Positions 9,141 through 12,289 of a DNA stretch of 64,000 nt are shown here, in pieces. Source of the DNA: the human T2T-CHM13v2.0 reference genome, Homo sapiens. The notes under the pieces are model-generated. The model did no database searches, was not told where the DNA came from, and saw nothing but the letters and a program-made list of their open reading frames with translations. Numbering within the stretch: the first letter of the stretch is position 1; every line of letters begins with the position of its first letter. The position numbers and the translations under genes were made by a program. The stretch lies in assembly GCF_009914755.1 (NCBI RefSeq), contig NC_060939.1; one strand, written 5' to 3'.

Positions 9141-10482
9141 TTTTACCCATTTCATATATTCATTTGCATGGTTGCTTTACAGTGCCAGGGGCGAGTGGGT
9201 GGGGATTTTGTGGAGGCTGTGTGTTTTGGCTGTGAAAGACATCTAGCAGTCCTAGTAATGCCCTAGCTCCCATGAGCAGTGCTTCCTAAGGGCTCAGAGA
9301 GAGAGACTTTGGGACTATGCAGTACTGAAAAGGCAAGAGGTAACGCAAGCTGTAGCAACGCATTTCACTGCAGTTGCATGCCGGCAGCCAGAGACAATGC
9401 CAACTGAAGTGGATGCAGCCAGGGGAAGTCTGAAGAGCAGCCAGGCTCATAAATTTGAAGAGTGGAAAAGAATTGCGATGGCAACTAAATATTGCTCTGT
9501 AAAGTAGCCAGGCATAAGTCTTATACAGCAGTGACTTTCAAACTTTAGAAACTCTATTAACACTCCTCAAGTAGAAGGCTGCTGTGAGCTCCTGAAGAGG
9601 CACAGGCCATCCTCAGATCTCTGTGTTCATGAAAGATGCCCCGACTTTCTATCAGGGCCCATCTCCCTTGGGGTAGGGGGCTGGGTGCAGAATTTAACAT
9701 TTTTTGATACTTTTTTTAAAAAAGAAATACAAAACTCAAGAGAATAATATAAGAACCCCAACATAACCCCTGCCCAGATTCCTCTTTCCTTTTTACAATT
9801 GCATTGCCCACGTCATGTATTCCATCAGTTTCCTGCTGTTTTGACATGTGGGCTGTCTCTGGCTGGCCTTTGGCTGCAGTGAGTAGACACCCTTTTGCCT
9901 ATATGTTTTCACATTTTTGCAAATGTAGCTTGAAGTTAGATTCCAGGAGGTGTGTTTGCAGGGTCATGAGTAAGCGTATATGCAGTTTTGCTCACCGTTG
10001 TGCAGTGCCGCCCCCAATATCTGGGGATGCCTGCTTCCCAGGGCCTCTCAGCATCATTTGTCATTAGTGTTTTGCATTTTTGTCAACCTGGTAGGTGAGA
10101 AATGGTATCTCAGTTTAGTTTTAATTTGTTTTTTTTTTCTATTTTGTTTGAGATTGATCATATTTTCATATGTTTAAGGTCTATTTACATTTTTCCCCCT
10201 GGGAGCTCACTCTCTATTTAGACGTCTTGCCCATCTTTCTATTATTGGTCTTTTATTGCTTCTAAAATTTGAATTTCTACTTTATTTCCAATTTTTTTTC
10301 TTACTTGTCACTGACTTGAAGCTCATACATTTTGAATTTTGAGTCATAATTAGGAAGTTCGAATTTTGAGCCATATTTAGGGAGATTTTCTTACTCCGGA
10401 TGATAAAGAAGTTTACTTATATTTTCTTCTAGAATTTAGATAGTCTCAATATTCCACATTTAGATTTTTAAAAATATATTAA

Positions 10483-10600
10483 ATTGAGACAGGGTCTCAC
10501 TTTTTTGCCCAGGCTGGCCTCAAACCCCTGCCCTCATGGGATCCTCCCTTTTCGGCCTCCCAAAGTGCTGGGATTACAGGCATGAGCCTCTGCACCTGGT
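10483..10600 (-). mobile_element. FLAM_C-like Alu monomer
   Basis: Single left monomer with TSD acatttagatttt on both sides. Confidence 0.85.
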
Positions 10601-10869
10601 CTACATTTAGATTTTTGTTACATTTGTCATATACTATTCTAGTGTGGAGAGTGAGGAATGGATTGAATGTTACTTCTAAATAGCTATCTATTTGTCCCAA
10701 AAATATTTATTTGAGGGTTCCATCTTTTACTTGCTGACTTAGGGTCTGTATCATTTGCTCTATCTCCATGTGTACCTGGCTGTATTTCAGGCCTTTACAT
10801 TCTTTCGCTGGTCTGCCGTCCTTTTATTTGCTAATACCACACTCCTTTAATTAAGGAAGCTTCATAGAG

Positions 10870-11771
10870 AGCTGGCCGGGAGTATAGAGGAGCAAACACA
10901 TTTTTCCATTCAGGCACTCCTGACTCACCTGAATTCCAGCAGAGCACAGGCTGTGCCAACTCTCTGCCTGTGCTTTTAGACCCTGTGGCTGCACAAAAAA
11001 AACTCAGGAATCAAAGTGGAGACAGTGAGAATTCAGGCGGAAATTACTAGAAAACCCCAGGAAGTAAAGAAGGAAAAAGAAACCAAGGAACCAGAAAAAC
11101 CAACAGATGCAGTCAGTTAAAACTTAGAGTGACCAGGAGATCCAGTGTTTCTTAAAAGAATGGAGATTTCTTGAGTGTGAAGATTTGAGGAAGAGGATCG
11201 TGAATGGTCCAAGACAATTGCCCAGCACCTCAAGCAGAGAGGCACCAGCAGGAGCTGGTAACAATGTCTACAGTCTACAGATGCTGGAGAGAGCAGGACT
11301 CACTCTGGGCCACTCATGAGACCAGCCATGGGCCAAGGAGCCAGCCCTGGCCCTGTCCTCATGGAGAGGCCCTGCCAGGATTCTGGGATACAGATGGAAG
11401 GACAAGGTCTTTTCAGGTCCTCTCTGTGCATATGTGGTTGTTCCTGCAACTCCTGTTATCAGTTCCGGGTCTGTCATCCCCATTGCTTTAAGGGGCTGCT
11501 GTCGGCCCCCATGCATGATTTCCGTGGAGCATCCTCAGGTACCCAGATGGGAGTCCTGGAACATGAGCCTGAGGGTCAGCCCCCTGCCTGTTTCCTGCTG
11601 TTGTCCCAGCTAGAAACTTGGAGACAATTAGAACCTGGATCTCAATTCTGCCTCAAAGCAAGGCAATAGCACAATCTATACACTGGTGCGTGACTCCTCC
11701 TCTCCCAGCCCAGTGTGATGAGGATAAAATGAGAAATAAATGAATGAGCATCACCTAAAAAAAAGAAAGAA
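10870..11771 (+). pseudogene. Processed pseudogene of an MSANTD5-like Myb/SANT-domain gene
   Basis: Frame-hopping translation from GTG 11016: VETVRIQAEITRKPQEVKKEKETKEPEKPT / MQSVKT*SDQEIQCFLKEWRFLECE / SKTIAQHLKQRGTSRSW*QCLQ / EQDSLWATHETSHGPRSQPWPCPHGEAL / RILGYRWKDKVFSGPLCAYVV...SVEHPQVPRWESWNMS, collinear with MSANTD5 as I recall it; no introns; AATAAA 11735-11740; A-tail 11757-11771. Confidence 0.8.
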
Positions 11772-12289
11772 TTCTATGTTTTAATATCTGGCAGGGCTAG
11801 TCCTTTGTTATTTCTTCCAGAGTTTTTCTGGTGATTTTTACTTGTTTATATTTCCATATGAACATTATGATCAACTTGTACATTCAGGTCTTCTATAATT
11901 ACTGGGTTGCTTTCTGAAGGCAGAGTGTGTGGAATCCCACAGGTGCAGAGAGCAGCCTCCTGGGTGTGAGTTAATTTGCATTTATACCTGACTTCCTTTA
12001 CCGTTGGTCAATAACCTAGGCATAAAGCTAAGTTGAAAAGTACTGCCCTAGGTAGCCTTAAAATTAATGAAGAATGAACACAAAGTATTACAACACAAGG
12101 AAGAAACCCTAAGTTACTAGAGGGCAGGGACTGTTTAATAGTATGTGCCTAAACATATGTGCTGGAGCTAGATACATTGCCAAGGTCCAGTAAAATGCTG
12201 AATTATATTAAAAGAATGAATGTGATCAATGCTAGATTGGAATCCTATTTCAAGGGGGAACAGAAGAAGAAGATGTTCACTTGGAATTC

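What the first reader, a model, noticed from the sequence alone, without database searches (positions are those of the whole stretch)
10870..11771. Hidden MSANTD5-like (Myb/SANT-domain) processed pseudogene
A ~900-bp non-repeat insert cleanly splits an old L1 and ends in AATAAA plus an A-tail. No single ORF reveals it, but switching frames gives a collinear, nearly full-length match to MSANTD5 as I recall it: QSVK.WSDQEI..FL.EW.FLE, SK.IAQ.LKQRG...SW..CLQM, PR.QP.PCP.GEAL.RILGYRWK..VFSGP.CA.VV, VE.PQVP.WE.WNM. Lesions include ATG>GTG (11016), TAG at the first SANT Trp (11125), TAA (11259), a 7-nt tandem duplication tctacag (11267-11280) and several frameshifts. About 145 nt of 5' UTR appears to be preserved. 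MSANTD5 is poorly characterised. A heavily diverged retrocopy implies ancient germline or embryonic expression and may come from a lost paralogue. It may be unannotated.
Basis: partly seen in the sequence, partly recalled or inferred. Interest (0 to 1): 0.75.

Follow-up and report, generated by a model that had tools for sequence, protein, structure and literature searches.

The report
Dead retrocopy of lost MSANTD5 paralogue
This is a broken, intron-less copy of an MSANTD5-type messenger RNA sitting inside an old L1 element; it is an ordinary dead gene copy, but with ten or more sister copies it likely records a second MSANTD5 gene, probably active in germ cells or early embryos, that our ancestors have since lost.

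Summary
Confirmed. Window 10866-11756 (+) is a full-length processed pseudogene of an MSANTD5-family mRNA. All three introns of the chr5 gene are missing at the exact junctions, and an A-tail starts where homology ends. A decayed target-site duplication flanks it, and the L1 halves on either side are contiguous in other L1 copies. It has a GTG start, two stops and 5-7 frameshifts, and its dN/dS (0.68) matches neutral simulation (0.71): likely dead on arrival. RefSeq lists nothing here. The genome holds at least 15 independent MSANTD5-type retrocopies; one was later amplified to about 38 places, mostly acrocentric short arms. The window copy and nine others share non-CpG codons (K47, E65, T100, W112) and a shorter loop that the human gene lacks; K47, E65 and T100 occur in no named intact MSANTD5 sampled. 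The eight put in protein trees form their own clade (100/99), so the source was likely a lost paralogue. Copy 5' ends map the start site just downstream of a TATA-like box and a DUX-like motif in an LTR-like repeat; published myoblast DUX4 ChIP shows no peak on that motif. Ordinary class, useful fossil.

The parts
10635..10865 (-). Left half of an old L1 fragment (family and orientation are recalled resemblance, no repeat library)
   Evidence: aligns to dispersed paralogues found with the right flank; in 5 of 8 the left-flank end and right-flank start lie within -5..+5 nt
10853..10865 (+). Left copy of the decayed target-site duplication, preceded by TT (TT|AAGG, like the L1 endonuclease site)
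   Evidence: 11 identities over 13 nt with 2 gaps against 11763-11777; 0.06% of 21,329 sampled window 15-mers score as well (boundaries chosen by eye)
10866..11021 (+). Exon-1-derived part: about 150 nt of 5' UTR plus the first two codons
   Evidence: 115 of 159 aligned bases identical to parent exon 1; sister copies start at the same point
11016..11018 (+). Start codon changed to GTG
11022..11107 (+). Exon-2-derived part, joined without the 1404-nt GC-AG intron
   Evidence: 56 of 85 identical; junction score spliced 44 versus 6 and -14 unspliced
11108..11416 (+). Exon-3-derived part, joined without the 498-nt intron
   Evidence: 232 of 302 identical; junction score 62 versus 12 and 22
11122..11379 (+). 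Relic of the Myb/SANT-like domain (parent residues 36-122, PF13837), broken by TAG 11125, TAA 11259, a 7-nt duplication 11267-11280 and frameshifts near 11190, 11289 and 11375
11417..11756 (+). Exon-4-derived part (C-terminus and 3' UTR), joined without the 339-nt intron; AATAAA at 11735-11740
   Evidence: 247 of 329 identical; junction score 68 versus 28 and 13
11757..11764 (+). Non-templated A-tail remnant, starting where parent homology stops
11763..11777 (+). Right copy of the decayed target-site duplication
11778..11879 (-). Right half of the interrupted L1 fragment
   Evidence: 8 dispersed paralogues at 73-84% identity

Best explanation
The stretch is a broken, intron-less copy of a full-length MSANTD5-family mRNA inserted into an old L1, likely written there by L1 reverse transcriptase in a germ-line or early-embryo cell of an early primate-lineage ancestor, and likely copied not from today's MSANTD5 but from a since-lost paralogue. 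Shown: intron loss at all three junctions, A-tail, split host element, absence of the parent promoter, disabling lesions, neutral-like substitution pattern, and shared derived states with nine sister copies. Inferred: L1 target-primed reverse transcription (established mechanism for such hallmarks); death on arrival; an age older than the simian split, roughly 60-90 million years (19.6% divergence from the sister-copy majority, with a neutral rate recalled from general knowledge). Also inferred: a source gene that was a genomic duplicate sharing the same start site and polyadenylation site. More tentatively, an LTR-derived TATA and DUX-type promoter drove a burst of cleavage-stage expression that made the family so retrocopy-prone. 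The copy itself most likely does nothing today.
For:: spliced chr5 CDS equals P0002; the window matches all four exons with junctions at 11022, 11108 and 11417; contiguous L1 halves in 5 of 8 paralogues; decayed duplication; the 60 nt upstream of the window copy do not resemble the parent promoter (score 12, background 10-16); omega 0.68 versus neutral simulation median 0.71 (95% range 0.44-1.28); none of the 10 old copies falls outside that range; of the 10 old copies, 8 carry AAA at parent codon 47 (one AAG, one AGG), 9 GAA at 65, 9 Thr at 100 and 7 TGG at 112; the parent and both young copies carry none of these; the window has the old state at 60 of 73 diagnostic sites; old copies lack 3 residues after the first helix that human (2 of 3 kept), aye-aye, lemur, colugo, tree shrew, squirrel and dugong carry, so descent of the human gene through them would need a re-insertion of ancestral letters; the 8 old copies tested form one clade, 100/99; trees making them a ladder toward simians are rejected (p-AU 0.004 and 0.017); 10 of 15 independent copies start within -3..+2 nt of one parent position, with different upstream flanks; that start lies about 31 nt below a TATA-like stretch and 51 nt below a DUX-like motif, within a dispersed repeat (8 other loci). 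Literature: mouse Msantd5 genes Gm11487, Gm11756 and Gm428 are multicopy 2-cell genes; Gm428 is described as a direct Dux target.
Against: No intron-bearing relic of the inferred source gene was found (only 40-150 candidates scored per search, so sensitivity is limited). The clade groups were named after seeing the tree, and dead copies are long branches. The source's place among mammals is unresolved: with simians p-AU 0.34-0.36, with primates 0.29, with Laurasiatheria 0.11; no tarsier sequence was found. The published DUX4 ChIP table from myoblasts has no peak on the proximal motif (nearest peaks 2.8 and 7.7 kb upstream and 13.4 kb downstream). Supplementary file 17 of that paper (recalled as the DUX4-activated promoter list; caption not seen) gave no hit. 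The target-site duplication is degenerate. The dN/dS test is weak (188 codons) and cannot exclude a short functional period. No expression data were available.
Confidence: 0.8

Rival explanations
1. Processed pseudogene of the direct ancestor of human MSANTD5; no lost paralogue, only fast evolution of the parent with reversals.
For: In the DNA tree the parent lineage is long (0.165 between the old and young copy groups); old copies share Q110 with simians and K126 with primates; old plus simians as one clade is not rejected (p-AU 0.34-0.36).
Against: It needs about six amino-acid reversals and regain of the ancestral loop letters; ladder topologies are rejected; two other old copies (chr9:133.86, chr6:33.06) keep the canonical codon 100, and chr9:133.86 also codon 112 and the long loop.
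Confidence: 0.11
2. The old copies were copied from an intron-less, once functional MSANTD5 retrogene rather than from a genomic duplicate.
For: No intron-bearing relic found; a retrogene would explain a private, fast-evolving branch.
Against: Copies start at the same base as the canonical transcript and share no extra 5' or post-tail sequence, which a new promoter would be expected to add; none of the 10 old copies shows omega below the neutral range.
Confidence: 0.05
3. The window copy was itself a working retrogene for a time, or still acts as a non-coding RNA or regulatory element in the ATP10A to LINC02346 interval.
For: Full-length insertion with 5' UTR and polyadenylation signal; lies 9 kb upstream of LINC02346 on the same strand (annotation table).
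Against: omega equals neutral expectation; it is the most diverged of the 10 old copies (19.6%); CpG observed/expected 0.13; no annotated exon or enhancer overlaps it (annotation table).
Confidence: 0.04

Closest known systems
Human MSANTD5 (chr5, P0002; Myb/SANT-like domain PF13837)
   Same: Same four-exon mRNA layout, start site, polyadenylation site; about 75% DNA identity and 96 of 190 residues
   Different: No introns, no promoter, broken frame; carries codons and a shorter loop that the human gene and its two young retrocopies lack
L1-mediated processed pseudogenes
   Same: Intron loss, A-tail, target-site duplication, TT|purine-rich site, neutral decay
   Different: Nothing in kind; notable only because the likely parent is extinct
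DUXA with DUXAP1-10 and similar early-embryo genes rich in processed pseudogenes (PMC3004920, passages read)
   Same: A poorly studied placental gene with ten or more retrocopies, read as a sign of germ-line expression
   Different: Myb/SANT-like rather than homeobox; most copies trace to a side lineage; human embryo expression not shown here
Mouse Msantd5 family, Gm11487, Gm11756, Gm428 (10.1101/2025.08.21.671216, section 5 read; 10.1101/431890, one passage read)
   Same: Same gene family; multicopy; 2-cell expression and Dux control reported in mouse
   Different: Mouse copies are predicted protein-coding paralogues; mouse proteins did not appear in my searches and were not compared

Membership tests
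Processed pseudogene | Introns of the parent removed at exact junctions | tested here: met
   3 of 3 junctions; spliced scores 44, 62, 68 versus at most 6, 22, 28 unspliced
Processed pseudogene | Non-templated A-tail after the polyadenylation signal | tested here: met
   AATAAA 11735, 8 A from 11757 where homology stops
Processed pseudogene | Target-site duplication at an L1-endonuclease-like site | tested here: inconclusive
   11 of 13 with 2 gaps, boundaries chosen by eye; one search shows the host element is split at this point
Processed pseudogene | Parent promoter absent | tested here: met
Processed pseudogene | Coding frame disabled and evolving neutrally | tested here: met
Processed pseudogene | Not transcribed or translated | not testable with these tools
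   no expression data; no RefSeq feature at the site
MSANTD5 family | Full-length similarity to named MSANTD5 proteins | tested here: met
   scores 267-399 against 12 of 12 mammalian proteins tried, controls at most 45
MSANTD5 family | Detectable Myb_DNA-bind_4 domain in the copy itself | tested here: not met
   0 families in 3 read-through frames (domain split by frameshifts); the parent passes the cut-off, 29.2 versus 27 bits
Direct retrocopy of the lineage of human MSANTD5 | Branches from the line leading to the human gene without private inherited states | tested here: not met
DUX-driven genome-activation gene (applies to the parent) | DUX-type motif in the promoter | tested here: met
   motif at -51; pattern recalled, and it matches the three neighbouring published peaks with 0-1 mismatch
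DUX-driven genome-activation gene (applies to the parent) | DUX4 bound at that promoter | tested here: not met
   no peak at the converted position in the myoblast ChIP table of PMC3836709
DUX-driven genome-activation gene (applies to the parent) | Transient expression in cleavage-stage human embryos | not testable with these tools
   only mouse reports seen
ACRO composite repeat (for the acrocentric sister copies) | Tandem 6-kb unit | tested here: not met
   neighbouring copies on acrocentric arms lie about 100 kb or more apart; ACRO described as a 6-kb tandem unit

The most novel reading that the evidence does not exclude
MSANTD5 is an overlooked genome-activation gene family of placental mammals with an LTR-derived, DUX-responsive promoter. 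Early primates carried a second, fast-evolving copy that is now extinct and is known only from at least 11 retrocopies, this one among the oldest, and one of them was later multiplied to about 38 places on the acrocentric short arms, pericentromeres and Y.
Probability: 0.4. Interest if true: 0.55.

Novelty: new member of a known kind. Interest (0 to 1): 0.33.

Why it matters
The copy itself is an ordinary dead pseudogene missing from RefSeq. Its value is as a fossil. The family fixes the start and end of a barely annotated transcript, points to germ-line or embryo expression of a gene that only 2 of 8.4 million searched papers name, and suggests a lost primate paralogue. It also identifies a gene-derived piece of the acrocentric segmental duplications. 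The 50 or more related loci matter for read mapping if MSANTD5 is studied in human embryos.

Tried and rejected
Pfam on read-through single frames: nothing. Left L1 flank as a genome query: only itself; the split was shown through right-flank paralogues instead. Exact-repeat search found no clean target-site duplication. ACRO composite as host of the acrocentric copies: rejected on spacing. Former retrogene: not supported. A first dN/dS run covered only 63 codons for the old copies because the majority sequence broke frame; it was replaced, whose script stopped with an error after printing the values used. Candidate source-gene relics: chrX:51.77 Mb and chr9:88.45 Mb keep the canonical residue 47 and long loop and belong to another, partial family; chr3:45.98 Mb gave no real alignment; no second copy in the 50 kb around the parent. 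chr7:56.72, chr7:57.65, chr16:32.25 and the two other chrX hits were not examined. CpG decay as cause of the old-copy clade: the parent codons at 47, 65, 100 and 112 hold no CpG. DUX4 binding at the proximal motif: not seen in myoblasts. Literature searches with recalled, unverified gene identifiers gave nothing relevant.

Full report
Observation. Three single frames read through their stops gave no Pfam family. A DNA search of the genome gave 68 matches, among them a copy on chr3:144.27 Mb with a 197-residue open frame. That frame hits PF13837 (E 1.3e-5, just under the curated cut-off) and retrieves 29 proteins, led among named ones by human MSANTD5 (P0002). A frameshift-tolerant alignment of P0002 to the window scores 348 with 96 of 190 residues identical; 12 shuffles score 25-43. 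Identity is higher to aye-aye (56%) and dolphin (55%) than to human (50.5%).

Parent and processing. The parent lies on chr5 (minus strand, about 179,246,590-179,249,792). Splicing its four exons gives exactly P0002. The window matches all four exons in order at 66-77% identity, and the introns of 1404, 498 and 339 nt are absent at 11022, 11108 and 11417. Homology ends at 11756, 16 nt after AATAAA, and an A-run follows. The right flank has 8 dispersed paralogues. In 5 of these 8 the left flank joins the right flank within -5..+5 nt; the other three show gaps of 12, 46 and 322 nt. The L1 label is a recalled resemblance, as no repeat library was available. A decayed duplication 10853-10865 / 11763-11777 flanks the insert.

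Decay. The start codon is GTG, there are stops at 11125 and 11259, a 7-nt duplication, and 5-7 frameshifts depending on the guide protein. Against the majority of the other nine old copies, the window differs at 173 of 882 sites, the most of the copies printed. omega is 0.68 over 188 codons, against a neutral simulation median of 0.71 (400 runs, range 0.44-1.28). This fits death on arrival but has little power against a short functional period.

The family. Twelve insertions with different flanks were examined first: ten old ones at 73-77% identity to the parent (window, chr16:11.49, chr2:24.2, chr9:98.36, chr2:20.1, chr5:173.7, chr22:22.95, chr5:123.9, chr14:67.3 and a pericentromeric group) and two young ones at 89% (chr3:144.27, chr4:80.77). 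Three more processed copies were confirmed (chr2:3.57, chr9:133.86, chr6:33.06), making 15; chr12:11.44 is a weak partial match and is not counted. The pericentromeric group shows at 38 places by my count (30 on acrocentric short arms; 8 on chr1, 3, 4, 9 and Y). Six of the 38 were tested and share their 5' flank, so this is one insertion spread by segmental duplication. It is not the 6-kb ACRO tandem unit (passages of PMC12767296 and 10.1101/2021.07.12.451456; the latter's supplementary tables were not seen).

Source gene. In protein trees 8 of the 10 old copies were included (chr9:98.36 and chr14:67.3 left out). They form one clade at 100/99, and trees that place either subgroup with simians are rejected (p-AU 0.004, 0.017; groups named after the tree was seen). 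The signal is visible at codon level in all ten, and the window carries the old state at 60 of 73 diagnostic sites. Six majority residues are absent from all 22 intact proteins in the comparison; the window has three of those six (K, E, T at parent 47, 65, 100). The old copies also lack three residues after the first helix, a gap shared with the laurasiatherian proteins but not with primates, colugo, tree shrew, squirrel or dugong. The human gene keeps the ancestral letters there, so it is unlikely to descend from the source of these copies. Against this: no relic of the source was found, its place among mammals is unresolved (p-AU 0.11-0.36), and tarsier is unsampled. A tamarin predicted protein is 84% identical to the chr16 copy, so that insertion predates the simian split. 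The window copy keeps the ancestral codon 54 and has the longest branch (0.197); 60-90 million years is an estimate from a recalled neutral rate.

Why so many copies. Ten of 15 copies begin within -3..+2 nt of one parent base, 170 nt above the ATG; the window copy is in register with it at 10866. In the parent a TATA-like stretch lies about 31 nt and a DUX-like motif 51 nt upstream, inside a sequence with 8 dispersed matches; one of 7 fetched matches aligns across both motif and TATA. That this is an ERVL or MaLR LTR is recalled, not tested. PMC3836709 (passages) reports that DUX4 turns such LTRs into promoters. Its peak table (49,232 of 63,795 rows held; chr5 rows on both sides present) has no peak on this motif after conversion with an offset checked on three neighbouring peaks; files 1-12 and 17 gave no hit for the terms tried, and files 13, 15, 16, 18, 19 were not searched. 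Mouse family members are 2-cell genes (section 5 of 10.1101/2025.08.21.671216; supplements not seen) and Gm428 is called a direct Dux target (one passage of 10.1101/431890). The promoter model is therefore plausible but unproven for human.

Prior knowledge. The RefSeq table lists no feature at this site although it lists another pseudogene in the window. A full-text search for MSANTD5 found 2 papers, and neither's passages concern human copies. Searches combining Myb SANT or MSANTD with retrocopy terms listed none that name the family (15 of 286 shown, listing only); one search listed general orphan-retrogene papers (listing only). PMC3004920 (passages) gives the DUXA precedent. GENCODE and Dfam were not available.

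Verdict. A real, ordinary processed pseudogene (probability about 0.98), likely from a lost MSANTD5 paralogue (about 0.8), with a tentative embryo-promoter story (about 0.4). Interest 0.33.

Noticed in passing
window 10456-10616: Alu-type monomer (about 10475-10600, minus strand) inserted in the same L1, with a clear duplication ACATTTAGATTTTT on both sides; subfamily not determined.
   Followed up: partly
L009, L011, L012, L018, L049, L054 (chr3:75.8, chrY:11.4, chr21, chr4:49.1, chr1:127.7 Mb): One old MSANTD5-type retrocopy was carried by segmental duplication to about 38 places, 30 of them on acrocentric short arms.
   Followed up: partly
L007:1427-2020 (chr3:144.27 Mb): Young retrocopy with a 197-codon open frame covering the whole Myb/SANT-like domain, cut off from its ATG by a frameshift after about 34 codons; omega about 1.1. 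An unnamed database protein (P0001, 89% identical) starts with Met at this point.
   Followed up: partly
L031:7780-8000 (chr5:179,249,780-179,250,000): MSANTD5 promoter lies in an LTR-like dispersed repeat with a DUX-like motif and TATA-like stretch; the first intron is GC-AG.
   Followed up: partly
L086:1-110 (chr6:33.06 Mb): This old copy extends about 55 nt upstream of the common start and keeps the DUX-like motif, suggesting an upstream start site and an old motif.
   Followed up: no
L083 (chrX:51.77 Mb) and L088 (chr9:88.45 Mb): A separate family in which only the first half of the Myb/SANT exon is joined to unrelated shared flanks; two more weak hits at chrX:51.76 and 51.81 Mb were not fetched.
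   Followed up: partly
L002 (chr16:11.49 Mb): Tamarin predicted proteins P0042 and P0048 fuse part of this retrocopy's orthologue to a PF21013 region; may be gene-prediction artefacts.
   Followed up: no
L045 (chr4:80.77 Mb) and L008 (chr22:22.95 Mb): These copies carry later insertions (476 nt; an Alu-like piece of about 280 nt).
   Followed up: no
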